Shown piece by piece: positions 1-47,600 of a stretch of 64,000 nucleotides of DNA (positions are counted from its first letter, which is position 1; each line of letters opens with the position of its first letter). Where the stretch lies: assembly GCF_009914755.1 (NCBI RefSeq), contig NC_060929.1; one strand, 5' to 3'. Position numbers and translations under genes: made by a program. Under the pieces are notes generated by a model. That model made no database searches, was not told the origin of the DNA, and saw nothing but the letters and a program-made list of their open reading frames with translations. This DNA comes from the human T2T-CHM13v2.0 reference genome, Homo sapiens.

Positions 1-2046
1 CTGCTGTCTGTAAGACATGACTTTGATCCTCATTCACCTTCTGCCATGATTATGAGGCCTCCCAGACATGTGGAAATGTGAGTCAACTAAACCTTTTTCC
101 TTTATAAATCACCCAGTCTCAGGTATGTCTTTATTAGTGGCATGAGAACAGACTACTAATACAGTAAATTGTTATCAGATAGTGGGGTGGTGCTGTAAAG
201 ACACCTGAAAATGTGGAAGAGACTATGGAACTGGGTAACAGGCAGAGGCTGGAACAGTTTGGAGGGCTCAGAAGACAGGAAGATGTGGGAAAGTTTGGAA
301 CTTCCTGGAGACTTGTTGAATGGATTTGATCAAAAAGTCCAGGCTGAGGTGGTCTCAGATGGAGATGAGGAACTTGTTGGGAACTGGAGTAAATGCCACT
401 CTTGATATGCACAGATACTGGCAGCATTTTGCCCCTGTCCTAGAGGTCTGTGGAACTTCGAGCTTGAGAGAGATGATTTAGGATATCTGGTGGAAGAACT
501 TTCTAAGTGGCAAAGCATTCAAGAGGAAGCAGGTCATAAAAGTTTGAAAAAAATTGCAGCCTGACAATGTGATAGAAAAGAAAACACCATTTTCTGGGGA
601 GAAATTCAAGCCAGCTGTAGAAATTTGCCCAAGTAATGAGGAGCCAAATGTTAATCCCCAAGACAATGGGAAAAATGTCTCCAGGGCATGTCAGAGACCT
701 TCATGGCAGCCCCTTCCATCACAGGCCTGGAGGTCTGGGAGGAAAAAATGGTTTCCTGGGCCTGGTCCCCAGGCCCCCCACACTCAAACCCCGCTCTATG
801 CAGCCTTGGGACATAGTGCCCTGCATCTCAGCTGCTCCAGCTCCAGCTGTGGCTAAAAGGGGCCAATGTACAGCTCAGGCTGTTGCTTCAGAGGTTGTAA
901 GCCCTAAACCTTGGTGGCTTCCACATGGTGTTGGGCCTGTGAGTGCACAGAAGTCAAGAATTGAGGTTTGGGAACTCCACCTAGATTTTAGAGGATGTAT
1001 GCAAATGCCTGGATGTCCAGGCAGAGGTGTGCTGCAGGGGTGGAGCCCTAATGGAGAACCTCTGCTAGGGCAGTGTGGAAGGGAAATGTGGGGTCGCAGC
1101 CCCCACACAGAGTCCCCACTGGGACACTGTCTAGTGGAGCTGTGAGAAGAGGGCCACCATCCTCCAGACCCCAGAATGGTAGATTCACCAACAACAACTT
1201 GTACTGTGTGCCTAGAAAAGCCACAGGCACTCAACACCAGCCCATGAAAGCAGCGTGAGAGGGGCTGTAACCTGCAAAGCTACAGGGGCGGAGCTGCCCA
1301 AGACCATGGGGACCCACCTCTTGCTTCAGCATGACCTGGATGTGAGACATGGAGTCAAAAGGGATCATTATGGAGCTTTAAGATTTGACTGCCCCACTGG
1401 ATTTCAGACTTGCATGAGGCTTGTAGCCCCTTTGTTTTGACCAATTTGTCCCATTTGGAACAGGTGTATTTACCCAATGCCTGCACAACCATTGTATCTA
1501 GGAAGTAACTAACTTGCTTTCAATTTTACAGGCTCCTAGGCAGAAGGGACTTGCCTTGTCTCAGATTAGACTTTGGAATTGGACTTTTAGGTTAATGCTA
1601 GAATGAGCTAAGACTTTGGAGAGTTGTTGGGAAGGCATGATTGTGTTTTGAAATGTGAGGACATGAGATTTGGGAGGAGCCCGGGGCAGAATGATATGGT
1701 TTGGCTGTGTCCCCACCCAAATCTCACTTAGAATTGTAATAATCCCCATGAGTCAACAGCGGGGCTAGGTGAAGATAGCTGAATTATGGGAGCAGTTTTC
1801 CCCATACTGTTCTCATGGTAGTGAATAAGTCTCACAAGATCTGATGGTTTTACAAAGGGGTTTTCTCCTACACAAGCTCTCTTTCCTGCCGCCATTTAAG
1901 ATGTGATTCTGCTCCTCATTTGCCTTCTGCCGTGATTGTGAGGCCTCCCAGCCATGTGGAACTGTGTGTCAATTAAACCTCTTTCCTTTATAAATTACCC
2001 ATTCTTGGTTATGTCTTTATTAGCAGTGGCAGAACAGACTACTACA
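1..2046 (+). mobile_element. THE1B-like MaLR LTR element, near full length (5' LTR end 1-163, internal 164-1691, 3' LTR 1692-2046)
   Basis: 3' LTR starts TGATATGGTTTGGCTGTGTCCCCACCCAAATCTC and ends ...CAGACTACTACA. The same LTR end occurs at 1-163. ~1.5 kb typical THE1-int between them. Confidence 0.92.
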
Positions 2047-4105
2047 ATGGCCATCTGCTCCTTGAAAAACTCATACTGATTATGCAGACAATAATTAGTA
2101 ACATTACTTTCTCAATATCCCCAAATACAAGTCCCAAAAAAGATGTGCACAATGATTCTGGAAGCATCCCTCACTGTGTTTCCCTAACCACAAGTAGAAA
2201 AAAAGTGTATGTGGCCAGAAGCATTAATCCCAAAACCTAAACCAACTTATACAAAAGGAGAAACAATTACTTTCATTGTTCAATTTTTTAACAGCTTTCC
2301 CGAGGTATAATAAACATACAATCAGCATCATATATTTAAAGTGTACATGTATGGTTTTATACATGTATAACCCCATCATCATTACAACCTATATAACAAC
2401 ATATCCTTCACTCTTACAAGTTACCACCTGTTCCTGTGTCATTGTTCTATCCTGCCTATCCATACCTTTGCATCCCTAGGCAACCACTACTCTGCAAGTC
2501 GTCATAGTAGTTTTAATTATCTAGAATTATATAAAAATAAAATCATAATGTATTTACTTTTTCAACTGTCTTCTTTTGCTCAGCCTAAATAATTTAAGGT
2601 TCATCAATAATGTACATATAAATAATTCATTACTTTTTTAACAAACAATAAATATTCCGTTGTATGCACTGTATGAATATACAACTTGTTTCTTGATTTA
2701 TCTGCTGATGGGCATTTGGGTTGTTTGCAGTTTGGCACTATTACAAATAAGGCTGCTACAAAGCCTTTGAGTACAAGTTTTTGTATGAATATAAGCTTTC
2801 ATTTAGCTGGGGCAAATAAAGCGTGAAATAGCCTAATCATATGATATGCATATACTTAACTTTTTAAGAAACTTGACAGTTTTCAAAAATGGTTGTACCA
2901 TGTACTTTCTTACAAGCAATGCATACAGTAGAATGACATCTCATTGTGATTTTAGTTTGCATTTCCCTAATGATGAATGACATTGAAAATCACAATGAGA
3001 TACTGCTCTACTGGACTTCATACATTCCTGGTAAGACTTTTGCTGTGATTTTGATCAGTCCTATGCTGAATTCATACAACAATTTTGGGAGAAGAGATAC
3101 CCCACAATATTGAGTCTTCCAACTAATGAACATATGTATTTCTTCATTTATTAGGTCTTCATTAATTTTGTTCAGCAATGTTTTGCAGTTTTCAGCACAT
3201 GGGCTTCTGCATCTTTTGCAGAATTATCCATGAGTATTACATAATAAATAAGATGATGTAAATGGTATTGTTTTCAACTTAGATTTTCAACTGATCATTG
3301 TTAGATATGGAAATGCAACTGCCATTAGTTTGTATCCTGCAGCCTTGCTGAACTTACTTATGAGCTCCAGTAGATTTTTGTAAAGTCCATCGGATTTTCT
3401 ACATAGACAATAACATCATCTACAAGTAAAACAATTTTACTTCCTCCTTTCCAAATACATGACTTTCATTTCTTTGTATTGCCTATTGCCATTGCTAGGA
3501 CCAAACAGTGCAATGTTCAACAGAAGTGACGAGAGTGACTATCCTTGCTTTGTTACCATATTACAGTTTTTTTGGAAATGCCCTTCTTTCATGTTGAGGA
3601 AATTCTCTTCTATTCTTTATCTTGCTGACTGTTTTGGGAACAGATTTTGGCATCAGAATTTGTCAAATGCTTTGTCAGCTATATTTAGATGAACACTCTG
3701 ATTTTTTAGAATTTGTTCATATAGTGAAACACGATGTTTTTTAATATCATAGGATAAATCTCAATTGGCTATGATCTATTATCCTTTTACCATATTATTG
3801 ATACATTTGCTAAAATTTTGTTGAGAAATTGTATATCATAATTGATATTTATATGTTGTTTTCTTCTTGATATGTCTTTTTCTGGTTTTGGTATCAAGGT
3901 AATTTGGCCTCACAGAAGCAGTTGGGAAGTTTTAACTCCTGTTCAACTTTCTAGAGAAATCTACATAGAATTGGTATTTTTGCTTTCTTAAATGTTTGGT
4001 AGAATTCACCAGTAAAGCTTTTTGGGCCAGTAGTTTTCTTCATGAGAAGGTTTTAAGTTACACATTCAATTTATTTAATTGATACAGGGATATTCATGTT
4101 ATTTA

Positions 4106-4428
4106 CAGCAGTCCCTTAGTATCTGCAGGGAACTGGTTCCAGGATGCCCAGAGATACCGAAATCCATAGAGGCTCAAGTCCCTGATAAAAAAATTATGTA
4201 GTATTTGCATATAACATACACACATTCACCCATACACTTTAAATAAGCTCTAGATTACCAATAGTACATAATACAAGGTAAATGCTATATAAATGGTTGT
4301 CTTACTGCTAAACTTTTTAAGTTCATATTATTTTTTGTTGTATTGTTATTTTTATTGTTATTTTCAAATATTTTTGATCCATGGCTGAATCCACATGCAT
4401 GGAACTCATGGATTCAAAAGGCCACCTG
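4106..4428 (+). mobile_element. MER2 (Tigger-family MITE)
   Basis: CAGCAGTCCCTTAGTATCTG...GGTTCCAGGA start, ...AGGCCACCTG end, TA on both sides. Confidence 0.88.
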
Positions 4429-6984
4429 TATTCTTAATTGAGCTTTGGCGATATATGTCTTTCAAGAAATTATTTACCTTATTTTTGCTTTTGAGTTGTT
4501 CATTATCTACTTAATATCCATTTAATATGATCTTTCTTGCTACATGTTCCATGTGCAATAAAAAGGAATGTATATTATCTGCTGCTGTGTGGCAAAGTGT
4601 TCTATAAATATTAAATAGGTCAAGTAGATTGACAGCAGTGCTAAAGTTTTCTATGCCCGTATTGACTTCTTATCTACTCTCAATTATTGAGAGGGGGTAC
4701 TGAAATCTCCATTAATTATGGATTTGTCTACACCTCCTTGCAGTTCTGTTTTTATTTCATGTATTTTGAAGCTATGCTATTAAGTGAGAGAACACTTAGA
4801 ACCATCACATCTTCTTGATTAACTGACCGCTTTATTATTATGAAATGGCCTTCTTTATGCCTGATACTATTACTTGCTCTGAAATCTTCTTTGTCTGATA
4901 TTAACTTAGCTACTCCAGCTTTAATTTGATTACTATTAGCCAATTATTTCTTTTTACATCTTTTAGGTCTTAATCCATTAGTGTCTTCTATTTAAAATAG
5001 ATTTCTTATAGGCAGCATATAATTGGATTTTTAAAATCCTACATAACAATCTTTATCTTTCAATTGGAGTGTTGAGACCATTTACATTTATTGTGATGAT
5101 TGACATGGCTAGGTTTCAATCTACCACTTTCTATTTGTTTTCTAACTATCCATTAATCATTTGTTCTTCTTACCTTCTTTTGTTGCTTTCTTCTTTATTA
5201 TTCCATTTTATCACCTTTTGTTGGCTTTTTAATCATTACTCTGTATTTTTAGTGCTTACTCTAAGGTTTACACCACACATCTTTAACTTATCAATGTCTA
5301 TCTTCAAGTAACATAATTCTTGACATATAGTATAGGCACATCCCAGCCTCTGTGTATTGTTTTATTATTTTACCACCACATCTACTCTACACCCCATAGG
5401 ACATTGTAATTAATTTTTGTTCAGTCAATTGTTTCCTAAAAAGATTTAAAATACTAAGGAAAAGTATTATATATTTACCCACATAGTTACGTTTTTTGAT
5501 ACTTTTCATTCCTTTCAATATTTTTCAAAGAATATTCAAAAATATTTGGCAATATTTTTCTTCAGCCTAAAGAACTGCCTTAATATTTCTTACTGTGCAG
5601 GTGACTGGAAAATGAATTCTTCCCTTTTATATATTGGGAAAAAGCTTTATTTATTTTACTTCTGATTTTGAAAGACATTTTATTAAATATAAAAGCCTAG
5701 ACAGAGAATTGTCTTTTTCAACTTTAGTGCTCTAAATGTGCTGTTCCACTTTCCTTTTTACTTGTACTGTTTTGGACAAATAATTTGTTGTTATTTTTAT
5801 CTTCTTTTCCTCTATACAAAATGTATCTCTTTTCTCTGGCTACTTTAAGATTTCCCTGTATCCCTGGTTTTGAGAAATTGATTATGATGTATCTTAATAT
5901 AATTTTCTTCAAGTTTCTTTTGCTTGGGGATTCATTGATCTTGGGTCTGTCAGTTTATAGCATTTATCAAATTTGGAAAAATTTTGACCATTATTTCTTC
6001 AAATATATTTTTTCTGCCATCTATTATTTTGCTAACTCTAAATATATGTATTTAGTTTGCTGAAAGTTGTCACAGAGCTCACTTATGCTCTCCTACATTC
6101 TTAAGCCTTTTTTTCTTTGTGCTTTATTTCAAATAATTTCTGTTGCTATGTTTTCAGGCTCACTAGTCTTTTCGCCTATAATGTCTCATCTCCCATTAAT
6201 CCCATCCAGAAAAATGTTCACCTCAGACATTGTAGTTTTCATCTGTAGAAGTTCAATTTGGATTCCACATCTCTACTTAACATTTTTAATCTTTCCTCCA
6301 ACTTTAGGGACATAAGGAATACCTTATAATAACTACTTTCATCTTCCAGTCTGTTAATTCTAACATCTTTGTCAGTTTGGGGTGAATTTTAGTTGATTTT
6401 TTTTCCATTTTGATCATGCTCTCCTGCTTCTTTACACAAAATTTTTGATTGCAGATATTTGATTAGATACCATGTATTGGGATTTTTTTTTACTTTATTT
6501 AGTGCTTAATATTTTTGTATTCTTATAAATATTCTTAAACTTTCTAGATAGATGTTTGATCCTTTTAGCTGTTACTTTTAAAATTTATTCTCCACAGCCA
6601 GAGCAGCATTTAGTCTATAGTTAATTGTTCTCCACTATTGAGGCAACACTATTCTGAGTACTCTAACCAATACCCCACCAATTATGTGACCCTCTAATCT
6701 GGTTAGAGAGGAAGGCAGTATTTCCAGGCTTATGTGCACTCTGAGTATTGTTCCTTTCACTCCTTTCAAGCAGTTCCTTCTCCAGTCTCAGAAAGATTCC
6801 TCACATGAATGTGATTGTCAGTATTCTGCTGAAAACTTGAGAGACAGCCTCTGTAGATGTCACAAGTTCTCTCTATATATCTGTTTCCTCACCAGGATTC
6901 TGCCCTGAGAACTCTAGCCATCTTGATCTCCCCAGAACTTAGGGAGTCTGCTAGGCCGTGCCTGGATTTTCTCACCCCGTAGCA

Positions 6985-43164: not shown

Positions 43165-43585
43165 TAAAATTTTCAGGATGCAGAGAAAGCAGTGCTTTGA
43201 GGAGCATTTATAACACTGAATGCATATATTAGCAAAGAAGGAATATCTAACATCGATGATCTAAGCTTCCACATTAGGAAACAAAAAAAGAAAAGCAAAT
43301 TAATACAAGATAGATTGAAGAAAAGAAATAAAAATTACAGCAGACATTAAGAAATTGAAAACAGGAAAGCAATAGAGAATATCAACAGACAAAATATTGG
43401 TTATTTGTTTTTGTTTTTAAGTGAAAGCAAATATATTAGAGAAATAAAGAAACAAAAGAATAGCTGCTCCATAGAAAGAGCAGCACAGGATGGGCTGCTT
43501 AACTAGTATAGTTATGGTTGTTTCTTGATTATTTGCTAAACAAGGGGTGGATTGTTCATGTGTTGTTCGAGAAAGGGATGGGGAG

Positions 43586-43594
43586 TTCCCAGAA
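43586..43594. promoter_or_regulatory. GAS (STAT) motif in MER41B U3
   Basis: TTCCCAGAA = TTCN3GAA. The neighbouring tandem site (ttcgagaa, 43566-43573) has lost N3 spacing. Confidence 0.65.
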
Positions 43595-43618
43595 CTGAGG
43601 GTTCTTCCCCTTTTCAGA

Positions 43619-43628
43619 CCATATAAGG
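43619..43628. promoter_or_regulatory. Perfect CArG box (SRF site) in MER41B U3
   Basis: CCATATAAGG = CC(A/T)6GG. Confidence 0.75.
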
Positions 43629-44173
43629 TAACTTCAAATGCCATGGCATTTGTAAACCATCATTGTGCTGGTGGGAGTATCCTTTAGCATGCAAATGCAT
43701 TATAATTGGCATATAATGAGTAGTGAGGACAATCAGAGTTCGCTTTTCTCCTCCTTTTGGTTTTGATGGGTTTTGGCTGGCTTCTTTACCGCATCCTGTT
43801 TTACCAGCTGGGTCTTTGTGACTTGTATCTTGTGAAACCAGTTCCACCAACCTCTTATCTCGTCCTGTGACAAAGAATGCCTAACCTCCTGGGGATGCAA
43901 CCCAGCAAGTCTCAGCCTCATTTTATCCAGTCCCTATTCAGAATGGAGTTGCTCTGATTCAAACACCTCTGACATATTTCCCCTCTCCCTTCTAAAAGGG
44001 ACCCTTAATCCTAAAAGGTTCATCTTCTGTAACTTCTTCAGGCTGAATGGGTGATGATATTCCTGTCTAAGTATTAGGGTCTCTTGTATTCAGGATAGAG
44101 AAGCATTCAGTGAGAAAGCATCGGTATGGTGAGGGCCATTTATAACTCAGAATCCCAACAAAAGGTGATATAA

Positions 44174-44426
44174 GGCCAGGTGCAGTGGCTCACACCTGTA
44201 ATTTCAGCACTTTGGGAGGCTGAGGCAGGCAGATTGCTTGAACTCAGGAGTTCAAGACCAATCTGGGCAACATAGCAAAACTCTGTCTGTATAAAAAATA
44301 CAAAAATTAGCTGTGCATGGTGGTGTGGAAGGATCATTTGAGCCCAGAAGGCAGTGAGCTGTTATTGCACCACTGCACTCCTGCCTGGGTGACAGCCAGA
44401 CCCTGTCCCCGCAACCACCCCAAAAA
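44174..44426 (+). mobile_element. AluJ-like element with internal deletions, inserted in the MER41 internal region
   Basis: Alu left arm intact, right arm shortened; TSD gatataa (44167-44173 / 44427-44433). Confidence 0.88.
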
Positions 44427-44616
44427 GATATAAATAATTTCTAAATTCTGGAGAAATAAAGTAGAAAGAAATATGCTCCAGATTTTGTTTACAGGAGTAT
44501 ATTTTACTCAATTCCTAAAAGCTGTAAATAGCTCAAAAGAAAAGTTTTCTTGACTACAAATTCAGCCAATTGGTGCTGCAGTCTATTTCCTTTGAGTTGG
44601 GGGTCTCTTCAGTATG

Positions 44617-44635
44617 GTCCCTTCATGGTTTGCCA
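44617..44635 (-). promoter_or_regulatory. Retroviral primer-binding site (tRNA-Arg-like)
   Basis: TGGCAAACCATGAAGGGAC a few nt after U5; resembles the complement of a tRNA-Arg 3' end (TGGCGACCACGAAGGGAC). Confidence 0.65.
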
Positions 44636-47600
44636 TGGAAGATGTTGCCAGAAAGAGGTCCAGATCTAGACCCCAAGAGAGCATTCTTGGATCTCGCAGA
44701 AGAAAAAATTCATGTGGAGTCCATGGAGTAAAGTGAAACAAGTTTGATAGAGAATTAAAGAAAAAAATGAATGGCTACTCCATAGACAGAGCAGCCTGGT
44801 TAGTTGAAAAGATTAATAAAATTGATAAACCTCTAGCCAAGCTAACCAAAGGAAAAAAAGAGAACACACAAATTACTAATATTATAAATAAAATAGAACC
44901 ATCATACTTATCTTGTGGGCATTGAAAATATAATAAAGGAATAGTATGAACAATTCTATGCTACAAATGTGATAACTAAAATGAAATGGACTAGTGACTT
45001 GAAAGACACCGACTATCAGAACTCACACTAGGATGAATAATTTGAACAGGCCTATATCCATTAAAAATAGAGTTAATAATTTCCAAAAAAGAAAGTACCA
45101 GGCTCAGATGGTTTCAGTGGCATTTTCTACTAATTCACTGGGGTTTTACAAAACATTTAAGGAACCCATGGTATCAATTTCTGCAACATCTTCCAGAATA
45201 TCTAAGCAGAGCAAACACTTCCTAATTCATTCTATGAGGCCAGCATTCCCCTAATATCAAAACCAGAGATATTACAAGAAGAGAAAATTATGGGCCAATA
45301 TCTCTCATGAACATAGATGCAAAAACCCTCAAAACAGTAGCAAATTAAACAATGTATGAAAGGAAACATACTCTGTGACCTATGAGCATGTATGCCACGT
45401 ATGAAAGATTAGTTAAGCATTTAAAAATTGATAAATGTAATCCATCATATCAATAGGCTACAGAAAACAATTATGATTACATCAGTCCAATACTCATTGA
45501 TAATAAAAAACATTTGACAACATCCAATACCCATTCATAATAAAAACTATGAGCAAACTAGGAATAGAGAAGAACTTCCTCAACATGATAAAGAATATCT
45601 ACAAAAAACAACTAGAGCTAACATCATACTTAATGGTGAGAAACTGAACGCTTTCTCACCATTTATTTGGGAGTAAGACAAGGATGTACCCTCTCACCAC
45701 TCCTATTCTACATTTTACTAAAATAAGACAAGAATAAGAAATATATTTATACAGATTGATAAGGAAGAAACAGAACTATCTATGTTTGCAAATGACATGA
45801 TCGTCTATGTAGAAAATCCTAAAGACCAGCAAGAAACTCCTGGAACTAATAAGCAATTATAGTAAGTTTGCAGGATACAATATAGAATGTCAATGTGGAA
45901 AAGTCAATTGCCTTCCTATCTATTACCAACGAAAAATTAATTAGCAAAAAACATACTTAGATGCAAACCAAACAAAATATGTACAACATCTATATGAAGA
46001 AAACTACAAAACTTTGAAGAGAGAGATGAAAGAATATTCAAGTAAGTGGAGAAATATTTCCTGCCCATTGATAGGGACACTAAATATGGTTAAGACGTCA
46101 GTTACTTTCTACTTAGCTGTAGATTCACCCCAGTGACAATTAAAATCTTAGCAAGTTATTTTGTAGATATTGACATACTGATTCTAAGGTTTCTGGGTTT
46201 CTGTGAAGAGGGAAATGACTCAGAATAGCCAACAGAACACTGAAGAAGAGTAGAGACAGAGGACTGACACTACTCAACTTCAAGACTTAGTAGAAAAGGT
46301 ACAGTAATCAAGACAATGTGATATCGGATACGTGGGTGTTTATTATGTTTCTTATTCTAATTTTGTGTGTATTTGAAGGCTTTCATAATGAATTTTTTTT
46401 TCTTAATGAAAAGTTTTTGAGACTCTTCTTCAACTGTGTTTTTCTCCATGTTTTCTCCCTTCTCCTAATAACCACAAACTTTATGCATGCTCAAGGATTA
46501 TCAATTTCACTGATTCTCTGCTTCCCAAATCAGTAATTTCTGCTTAAGTCATCATTACTTTATTCCTTCTGTTTTCTTTGAAAACACATGGTTTAATTTT
46601 CTAGCACTTCTAACTTTTTGAGTCTACTACTTAATTTACTTGTTTAGCTTCCTTTTTAATTCCTTAAGAGTATAAAACTATGAATTGTTCTTTGAGCACA
46701 ACTTTAGATAAGCCCTTAATTGTTTGGTAAGTGATGTGTTTATTATCTTTATTTTATAATTTTTTTAATTTTCATTTTGAATTCAAAGTATTTAAGAAAA
46801 AGATATAGAATTTTCCTATGATTATATATTTTTCTTTTTAGAGTATTAATTTCTACTTCTATTGAAATATATCCAGAGATCATGATCTGTTCTTCATGTA
46901 TTTGTGTATATATTGGAAATTATCTGTTTATTTATATGGCATTATGTATGTTTGGGGTCTTGAAAAGAGGTTATATACTCTTTCGTGTTAAAGAGTTTGA
47001 GACATATCTGTTAGCTGAAGTATAATAATTATATCATTTACATCTTCTGTGTGCTTATTTTATTGTGTAGCTGATCTGTCATGAACCTAGAGGCAAGTTA
47101 AATTCCACTGCAATACCATATTTCGGTCTATTTCTTCTTGTTTTGTTTGCAGCATATGTGTTCTATCTTTTACTATTTATGTACATATTTATGGCAACTA
47201 CAATCTCATAGTAAATTGTATATCTTATACTCACAAAATGGACTATCTTGTAAAATATTTGCTTTGGATTTAGTCTTTGTGATATTGATATTTCTACCTC
47301 AAGTTTTTTTTTGTTACTATTTCCTTGTTATGTCTTTTTTTCTTCTATACAATCTGAGTCTTTTAGCTCTGTATGGTTCTTGTATATACAACATATTTTC
47401 ATCTATAAAATATTATTTTTTTACCCAATCTGGTCATCTTTCTGTGAATATACCCTATTTACATTAGGTGTCAAAAAATATAATTGGTTTTAGTTTTTTC
47501 ATCCAATGTTATGGGTTTTTTTGTTTTAAATACTTCGTTTTTTATTTTTGTATTTTATTCATGAAATTTCTTACCATTACTTTGGTTCAGTGTATGCAGT

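What the first reader, a model, noticed from the sequence alone, without database searches (positions are those of the whole stretch)
43397..44806. MER41B upstream of FBN2 looks like an L1-retroposed copy of an ERV RNA, not a provirus or solo LTR
Seen: on the minus strand the element starts in mid-LTR at 44795 with no U3. It runs R-U5 to ...CA (44643), then a PBS, only ~400 bp of internal sequence once the Alu is removed, a PPT, and a complete U3 (TG at 43974) plus R. It stops ~13 nt after AATATA (43437-43432) in an A-rich tail (aaaaacaaaaac), with no 3' U5. The ~65-bp R is duplicated (44731-44795 / 43419-43484) and begins ~30 nt after a TATA-like CATAACTATA in U3. The flanks are a ~11-bp imperfect direct repeat (ttggttatttg 43397-43407 / ctggttagttg 44796-44806), longer than the 4-6 bp typical of integrase. 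Known: R-U5...U3-R-poly(A) with a long TSD is the processed-pseudogene structure described for HERV-W. Inference: a MER41 transcript was copied by L1 machinery, preserving the LTR start site and poly(A) site. I do not recall this being described for this copy.
Basis: partly seen in the sequence, partly recalled or inferred. Interest (0 to 1): 0.82.

Follow-up and report, generated by a model that had tools for sequence, protein, structure and literature searches.

The report
L1-made cDNA copy of spliced MER41 RNA
The retroviral relic upstream of FBN2, which appears to be a published placental enhancer, is not a provirus but a LINE-1-made DNA copy of a twice-spliced, polyadenylated MER41 transcript, and many other MER41 copies in the human genome have the same origin.

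Summary

**Structure.** On the minus strand the element runs R-U5 (44795-44643), PBS-like site, about 420 bp of internal sequence interrupted by a later Alu, PPT, and U3-R (43974-43419). An 11-nt A-rich tail follows, and an 11-bp target-site duplication flanks the whole.

**Target site.** In 13 of 13 paralogous L1 copies printed, the duplicated 11-mer occurs once and there is no A tract.

**Splicing.** The short interior comes from two precise GT-AG intron removals. Copies that keep the introns show the donor and acceptor sequences.

**Not a one-off.**
- Of 39 other loci carrying U5-leader, 24 begin within a few bases of the same R start, with unrelated upstream flanks. Eleven have U3 upstream.
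- Of 11 loci carrying the 3' internal end, 8 stop at the R end with A-rich tails.
- An R-end-plus-A8 pattern matches 248 sites, against 1 for the reversed control.
- Six siblings have 10-20-bp duplications.

**Published context.** By position, this copy matches the "MER41-enhancer adjacent to FBN2" (PMC10069462).

**Novelty.** Six searches found no report of L1 mobilising MER41. A 2017 review calls HERV-W the sole such group. Orthologous empty sites could not be examined.

The parts
44796..44806 (-). 5' copy of the target-site duplication (CAACTAACCAG), part of the host L1
   Evidence: paralogous L1 copies carry this 11-mer once
44730..44795 (-). 5' R, starting at the inferred transcription start (GCTGCTCTG); its AATAAA has decayed to ATCAAA
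   Evidence: 24 of 39 other loci begin within a few bases of this position with unrelated flanks
44643..44729 (-). U5, ending ...GGCAACA
   Evidence: 5 of 9 alignments to full LTRs end at this position
44617..44635 (-). PBS-like sequence TGGCAAACCATGAAGGGAC; the tRNA-Arg assignment is recalled, not tested
   Evidence: related sequence at the same place in 9 of the 10 siblings printed (decayed in L041)
44556..44795 (-). Exon 1 of the template RNA (R-U5-PBS-leader), ending at splice donor 1
   Evidence: the unspliced copy L037 continues ...TTTGG|gtaagt here
44432..44555 (-). Exon 2 (124 nt), between acceptor 1 and donor 2
   Evidence: intron-bearing copies read ...tttttcag|AGTCAAG and ...ACTATTT|gtgagt at its two ends
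44427..44431 (-). First 5 nt of exon 3 (ATATC), separated from the rest by the Alu insertion
44167..44426 (+). Later Alu insertion on the + strand (antisense to the element), including one copy of its 7-bp duplication (GATATAA at 44167-44173 and 44427-44433)
   Evidence: NCBI repeat mask 44168-44410 in the hub annotation
43419..44166 (-). Remainder of exon 3: 3' internal sequence, PPT, U3 and R
   Evidence: acceptor 2 reads ...tcttccag|ATATCACC in intron-bearing copies
43977..43993 (-). Polypurine tract AGAAGGGAGAGGGGAAA
43485..43974 (-). Complete U3 (starts TGTCAG). It contains a TATA-like box at 43516-43507, a CArG box at 43619-43628 and a GAS-like TTCTGGGAA at 43594-43586, and overlaps the RefSeq 'silencer' 43693-43987
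   Evidence: hub annotation
43419..43484 (-). 3' R, ending 13 nt after the decayed poly(A) signal AATATA (43437-43432)
   Evidence: siblings carry AATAAA at this place
43408..43418 (-). Remnant of the poly(A) tail (AAAAACAAAAA), absent from paralogous L1 copies
43397..43407 (-). 3' copy of the target-site duplication (CAAATAACCAA)

Best explanation
A MER41-group provirus elsewhere in an ancestral primate genome was transcribed from the start of R in its 5' LTR. The RNA was spliced twice, removing one intron of about 4 kb and one of about 1 kb. It was then cleaved and polyadenylated at the end of R in the 3' LTR. LINE-1 proteins reverse-transcribed this roughly 1.1-kb mRNA at a nick in an older L1 copy upstream of FBN2. 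That produced R-U5-leader-exon 2-exon 3-U3-R-poly(A) flanked by an 11-bp duplication. An Alu later inserted 5 nt past the exon 2/3 junction.

Shown: the truncated LTR ends, the tail, the duplication, the intron loss at GT-AG sites, and the recurrence at many loci. Inferred: that L1 was the enzyme (from the hallmarks), and the age. The age is roughly 40 million years, from 18% divergence between the two 60-nt R copies; the mutation rate is assumed and the sample is small.

Today the copy is a dead retrocopy. Its intact U3 appears to serve as a trophoblast enhancer, according to published data rather than tests here.
For: **LTR ends.**
- The 5' piece covers only R-U5 and the 3' piece only U3-R, relative to nine full LTRs.

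**Target-site duplication.**
- It is verified against 13 of 13 printed L1 paralogs (19 fetched). The 11-mer occurs once in each and there is no A tract.

**Splicing.**
- The junctions in this copy correspond to positions 334|4419 and 4547|5786 of the 6455-bp unspliced R-to-R copy L037.
- That copy reads GG|gtaagt...tttttcag|AG and TT|gtgagt...ttccag|AT at those points.
- Acceptor 1 is cag in 5 of 6 intron-bearing loci; L034 has cgg.
- A GT at the donor-2 position is visible in all 11 loci printed (gtgagt-like in most). Acceptor 2 is visible in 9 of 11.

**Siblings.**
- L035, L039, L040, L032 and L041 start at the same base, end at the R end with A-rich tails, and have 10-20-bp TSDs. The R-only copy L106 adds a 14-nt TSD.
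- L013 and L021 share both splice junctions with this copy but have different flanks. L039-L043 are singly spliced, and L032 joins donor 1 to acceptor 2.

**Census.**
- 5' side: 24 of 39 loci start at R, 11 have U3 upstream, 1 is further truncated and 3 are Alu-interrupted.
- 3' side: 8 of 11 loci end at R with an A-rich tail, 1 has a full LTR and 2 are interrupted.
- An R-end+A8 pattern with up to 2 mismatches gives 248 matches against 1 for the control. R continuing into U5 gives 1208 against 0.
- Three of 5 sampled poly(A) sites are R-only copies with unrelated upstream flanks. These independently mark the same start and poly(A) sites.
Against: - The tail is short and interrupted (11 nt), and the duplication is imperfect (9 of 11).
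- The nick site reconstructed from the paralogs (TTTT/CAAAG in element orientation) only loosely resembles the TT/AAAA L1 motif.
- No orthologous empty site in another primate could be examined, so the TSD rests on paralogs.
- L1 involvement is inferred from hallmarks, not shown.
- The long copy L037 has no Pfam-detectable gag, pro or pol. I tested 20 sense-strand ORF fragments and three read-through frames of intron 1. Calling the spliced RNA env-like or subgenomic would therefore be unsupported.
- Only the best 40 candidates per search were scored, so the censuses are samples of the best-matching copies, not random samples.
Confidence: 0.93

Rival explanations
1. An ordinary integrase-made provirus that later lost U3 of its 5' LTR, U5 of its 3' LTR and most of its interior through unrelated deletions.
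For: ERV proviruses are often deleted. The tail here is short and the flank repeat imperfect.
Against: - The two LTR breakpoints coincide with those of 24 of 39 and 8 of 11 other loci.
- The internal deletions coincide exactly with GT-AG intron boundaries.
- The host L1 is continuous across the site apart from an 11-bp duplication, longer than the 4-6 bp recalled as typical of integrase.
- The A tract is not host sequence.
Confidence: 0.02
2. A spliced MER41 RNA was packaged and reverse-transcribed by retroviral enzymes and inserted by integrase, not by L1.
For: Spliced retroviral RNAs can be co-packaged (general knowledge). The intron loss alone would fit this.
Against: Retroviral reverse transcription regenerates two complete U3-R-U5 LTRs and leaves no poly(A) tail. 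Here U3 is missing at the 5' end and U5 at the 3' end, an A tail is present, and the duplication is 11 bp.
Confidence: 0.02
3. The copy arose by DNA-level duplication of a pre-existing retrocopy, not by its own retroposition event.
For: One sibling pair (L017/L018 on chrX) is a DNA duplicate with identical flanks.
Against: The flanks here are unique among the loci seen. The insertion sits cleanly inside an L1 with its own duplication of host sequence. The best sibling identity is only about 80-85%.
Confidence: 0.02

Closest known systems
HERV-W processed pseudogenes (Pavlicek et al. 2002, not held here; Grandi et al. 2016 PMC5016936 and Grandi & Tramontano 2017 PMC5537654, passages read)
   Same: R-U5 5' end, U3-R 3' end, poly(A) tail, and a TSD in the 5-15-nt range. 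These copies form the majority of internal-sequence-bearing members. MER41-int is placed in the same HERVW9 supergroup as HERV-W.
   Different: - A different ERV group.
- The template here was doubly spliced. At least four RNA forms were retroposed: unspliced, singly spliced, doubly spliced, and with exon 2 skipped.
- 66-nt R-only copies also exist.
- The 2017 review's abstract calls HERV-W the sole HERV group mobilised by L1.
Ordinary mRNA processed pseudogenes / retrocopies
   Same: Intronless, polyadenylated, flanked by L1-type duplications, and starting at the transcription start site.
   Different: The parent is a retroviral transcription unit. The copy therefore carries a complete promoter/enhancer (U3) in its 3' part and can seed regulatory elements.
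SpIREs, spliced integrated retrotransposed L1 elements (PMC5860796, search listing and abstract start only)
   Same: Retroposed copies of a spliced mobile-element RNA that reveal its splice sites.
   Different: Those are L1 RNAs copied in cis. Here an ERV RNA was copied in trans.
SVA (its SINE-R part derives from HERV-K; mobilised by L1: PMC3287187, search listing and abstract start only; the HERV-K origin is recalled)
   Same: ERV-derived sequence spread by the L1 machinery.
   Different: SVA is a composite, self-propagating non-autonomous family. The MER41 copies lack a 5' promoter and look like dead-on-arrival copies from proviral sources.

Membership tests
L1-made processed pseudogene of an ERV transcript (criteria quoted from PMC5537654) | 5' LTR reduced to R-U5 and 3' LTR reduced to U3-R | tested here: met
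   the 5' piece covers roughly LTR positions 492-646 and the 3' piece roughly 1-558 of full copies
L1-made processed pseudogene of an ERV transcript | Poly(A) tail after the 3' R | tested here: met
   an 11-nt AAAAACAAAAA that is absent from 13 of 13 L1 paralogs. It is short and decayed; siblings keep A10-A22
L1-made processed pseudogene of an ERV transcript | Target-site duplication of 5-15 nt | tested here: met
   an 11-bp duplication of a host L1 11-mer that is single in the paralogs
L1-made processed pseudogene of an ERV transcript | TT/AAAA-like insertion motif | tested here: inconclusive
   the target reconstructed from paralogs is TCTTTT/CAAAGA, T-rich then A-rich but not the consensus
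L1-made processed pseudogene of an ERV transcript | Colinear with a mature RNA (introns absent) | tested here: met
   two GT-AG introns are removed precisely
MER41 group (MER41B LTR with MER41-int) | Sequence match to the curated MER41B / MER41-int consensus | not testable with these tools
   No Dfam or Repbase library was available. Indirect support: a GRCh38 interval 7.7-9.7 kb upstream of the FBN2 start is labelled MER41B in the RepeatMasker-based Tables S2/S3 of PMC10069462. The conversion to that build uses a recalled FBN2 coordinate. This is the only such copy in the window.
Integrase-made provirus | Two complete LTRs and a 4-6-bp duplication (the size is recalled) | tested here: not met
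Solo LTR | One complete U3-R-U5 LTR left by LTR-LTR recombination | tested here: not met
   two partial LTR pieces with internal sequence between them

The most novel reading that the evidence does not exclude
MER41 is a second human ERV group, after HERV-W, that L1 copied on a large scale.
- Most MER41 copies that carry internal sequence are cDNA copies of unspliced, singly spliced or doubly spliced transcripts.
- Many poly(A)-tailed copies exist, including 66-nt R-only copies.
- Part of the MER41B enhancer repertoire, including what appears to be the published placental enhancer next to FBN2, was therefore scattered by L1 rather than by retroviral integration.
- These cDNA fossils map the promoter start, the poly(A) site and four splice sites of an extinct retrovirus.

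The pattern itself looks real at roughly 0.9. The probability given here is that it is both real and not yet described in print or in the repeat databases.
Probability: 0.5. Interest if true: 0.75.

Novelty: new member of a known kind. Interest (0 to 1): 0.68.

Why it matters
**For the HERV field.** L1 mobilisation is treated as a peculiarity of HERV-W; a 2017 review abstract says it is the sole group. A second, related and much studied group with the same behaviour changes that picture. It also gives a comparison for asking why some ERV RNAs are good L1 templates.

**For MER41 regulatory studies.** MER41B is the textbook case of an ERV that spread interferon- and trophoblast-responsive enhancers. 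If many U3-bearing copies are L1 retrocopies, then copy counts, dating by LTR pairs, solo-LTR versus provirus bookkeeping and insertion-site preferences for this family all need to distinguish two delivery routes.

**For this locus.** The copy that is apparently the representative FBN2 placental enhancer would have an L1-made origin.

**For reconstructing the virus's expression.** The retrocopies are a fossil transcriptome. They fix the start site, the poly(A) site and the alternative splicing of an extinct virus without any RNA data.

Tried and rejected
**No Pfam hits in the long copy.** Neither 20 sense-strand ORF fragments of L037 nor three read-through frames of its 4.1-kb intron 1 (stops read as X) matched any family. 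I therefore dropped the idea of calling intron 1 gag-pol, or calling the spliced RNA env mRNA.

**Cap-derived extra G.** Most R-start copies have a G just upstream of GCTGCTC. However, about half of the full LTRs also have G there, and in L032 the G belongs to the TSD. I make no claim from this.

**Sampling poly(A) sites.** I wanted a larger sample of the 248 sites.
- A smaller request (5 loci) passed.
- Loci were also not cut out for the same reason.

**Sources unavailable.**
- Pavlicek et al. 2002 (PMC155283) is not held. I could not check whether it mentions MER41.

**Motifs.** The CArG motif count in the window is at chance level: 6 found against 7.9 expected. It is reported only as a located motif.

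**Literature.** Searches for MER41 combined with processed pseudogene, L1-mediated, retrotransposed, spliced and similar terms found no description of L1-made MER41 copies. Where both terms occurred in papers I opened, the passages were unrelated.
Full report
**What is there**

Read on the minus strand, the element begins at 44795 with GCTGCTCTG. A search of the window's own genome with the 3' LTR piece returned 40 full-length relatives at 78-81% identity. I aligned the element to nine of them, L002-L010.
- The 3' piece (43974-43419) covers the first ~558 bp of a ~646-bp LTR.
- The 5' piece (44795-44643) covers the last ~155 bp.
- The two pieces overlap by about 66 bp. This overlap is the duplicated R, found as a 60-nt repeat at 82% identity.

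Other features, located:
- A TATA-like box lies about 25 nt upstream of the R start in U3.
- A decayed poly(A) signal (AATATA) lies 13 nt before the R end. Siblings have AATAAA at that place.
- After U5 come a PBS-like TGGCAAACCATGAAGGGAC (44635-44617), about 420 bp of internal sequence split by an Alu, and a polypurine tract (43993-43977).

**Target-site duplication and tail**

The flanks belong to an old L1. I fetched 19 paralogous copies using the 5' flank as query and aligned both flanks to them.
- In the paralogs where the alignment reaches the junction, the 3' flank starts matching at its 12th base.
- That match overlaps the end of the 5' flank by 11 bp.
- In all 13 paralogs printed the sequence reads ...ATCTTTTCAAAGAACCAG|CTTTTGGTTT... 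once.
- At this locus the 11-mer stands on both sides of the element. The 11-nt AAAAACAAAAA has no counterpart in the host repeat.

Orthologous primate loci could not be reached with these tools.

**The short interior is two splices**

One relative, L037 on chrX, is a 6455-bp R-to-R copy.
- Mapped onto it, this element and its siblings jump from position 334 to 4419 and from 4547 to 5786.
- At those points L037 reads TTTGG|gtaagt, tttttcag|AGTCAAG, ACTACTT|gtgagt and cttccag|ATAAT.
- Independent copies that keep the intervening DNA show the same signals. Acceptor 1 is cag in 5 of 6; L034 has cgg. A GT at the donor-2 position is visible in all 11 loci printed, and acceptor 2 in 9 of 11.
- L035 also keeps GGTAAGTGG after donor 1.

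In window coordinates, exon 1 is 44795-44556 and exon 2 is 44555-44432. Exon 3 is 44431-44427 plus 44166-43419. The Alu sits 5 nt into exon 3, between 7-bp duplications.

At least four RNA forms were copied:

| Form | Loci |
|---|---|
| Unspliced | L037 |
| Donor 1 to acceptor 1 | L039-L043 |
| Both introns removed | this copy, L013, L021 |
| Donor 1 to acceptor 2 | L032 |

**It is a family, not an accident**

*Shared 5' start.* Other loci found with the leader begin at the very same base, with unrelated upstream DNA.

*Siblings with tails and duplications.*
- L035: A14 tail, 14-15-bp TSD.
- L039: A13 tail, 12-15-bp TSD.
- L040: TSD of about 20 bp.
- L032: A22 tail, 18-19-bp TSD.
- L041: TSD of 10-12 bp.
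- L043: truncated at the 5' end, with an A10 tail.

*5' census.* All 39 non-self hits to U5-PBS-leader were fetched as 250-bp pieces and scored.

| Class | Loci (of 39) |
|---|---|
| Start at R within a few bases, no U3 | 24 |
| U3 upstream (provirus type) | 11 |
| Further truncated | 1 |
| Interrupted by Alu | 3 |

*3' census.* Of the 11 non-self loci fetched with the 3' internal piece, 8 end at R with an A-rich tail, 1 has a full LTR (L031) and 2 are interrupted.

*Pattern counts.* R end plus A8, with up to 2 mismatches, gives 248 matches against 1 for the reversed control. R continuing into U5 gives 1208 against 0.

These are samples of the best-scoring copies. The motif could also match other MER41 subfamilies.

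**R-only copies**

I could fetch 5 of the poly(A) sites.
- Two have U3 upstream.
- Three consist of nothing but the 66-nt R plus an A run, with unrelated upstream flanks. One of these has a 14-nt TSD.

These look like RNAs that started at the promoter and were polyadenylated at once at the 5' LTR's own signal. They mark the same start and end independently.

**What the copy is today**

Two papers describe a MER41-enhancer adjacent to FBN2. It is bound by SRF, GATA2/3 and MSX2 in human trophoblast stem cells (passages read).
- Tables S2 and S3 of PMC10069462 list chr5:128545957-128547922 (GRCh38) as MER41B.
- The tables record it as active in TSC and STB, and bound by GATA2, GATA3, MSX2, ARID1A and SMARCA4.
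- That interval lies 7.7-9.7 kb upstream of the FBN2 start as I recall its GRCh38 coordinate. This element lies 8.3-9.7 kb upstream.
- It is the only MER41-like copy in the 64-kb window.

The identification is therefore very likely, but it rests on a recalled coordinate. The U3 holds a CArG box at 43619-43628 and overlaps the RefSeq silencer entry in the hub annotation.

**What is known**

- The HERV-W literature defines this kind of element.
- MER41-int is placed in the same HERVW9 supergroup.
- Vargiu et al. note that some of their 'proviruses' may be processed pseudogenes, but they did not separate them.
- Six searches found no description of L1-made MER41 copies.
- Pavlicek et al. 2002 is not held, and the Dfam and Repbase notes were not available. 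Prior mention cannot be excluded.

**Limits**

- L1 is inferred from hallmarks.
- The nick site is only loosely consensus-like.
- The tail and TSD of this copy are decayed.
- L037 shows no Pfam-detectable retroviral domains, so nothing is claimed about what the spliced RNAs encoded.
- The tRNA-Arg reading of the PBS is recalled, not tested.
- The age, about 40 million years, rests on 60 nt and an assumed rate.

Noticed in passing
L105 (chr1:87.54M), L106 (chr3:155.52M), L107 (chr7:26.09M): R-only mini retrocopies. They consist of just the ~66-nt R of the MER41 LTR followed by an A run, with unrelated upstream flanks. L106 has a 14-nt duplication. Three of the 5 sampled poly(A) sites were of this kind, which suggests promoter-proximal polyadenylation in the 5' LTR and L1 copying of very short RNAs.
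   Followed up: partly
window 43485-43974: By position, this U3 appears to be the published 'MER41-enhancer adjacent to FBN2' (PMC10069462 Tables S2/S3). It is recorded there as active in trophoblast stem cells and syncytiotrophoblast and bound by GATA2, GATA3 and MSX2. RefSeq lists a silencer over 43693-43987. A CArG box is at 43619-43628 and a GAS-like TTCTGGGAA at 43594-43586.
   Followed up: partly
L037 (chrX:132.54M), element positions 335-4418: The 4.1-kb first intron of the long R-to-R copy has no Pfam-detectable gag, pro or pol in any sense frame, even read through stops. The internal region may be non-coding or too decayed to recognise.
   Followed up: partly
window 44167-44433: An Alu on the + strand inserted 5 nt downstream of the exon 2/3 junction of the retrocopy, with a 7-bp duplication (GATATAA). 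It is about 250 bp long, shorter than a full Alu.
   Followed up: no
L035 (chr13:44.86M): This R-to-R copy reads through splice donor 1 for about 200 bp before joining exon 2. That could be an alternative donor or a separate deletion.
   Followed up: no
R-start loci L066-L104: About 18 of 24 R-start copies have a G immediately upstream of GCTGCTC. In L035 and L039 this G is not part of the duplication. It could be a cap-derived G or a start site one base upstream. About half of the full LTRs also have G there, so the point is undecided.
   Followed up: partly
L017 / L018 (chrX:151.05M and 150.95M): Two copies of one retrocopy with identical flanks in opposite orientation, which indicates a later inverted segmental duplication.
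   Followed up: no
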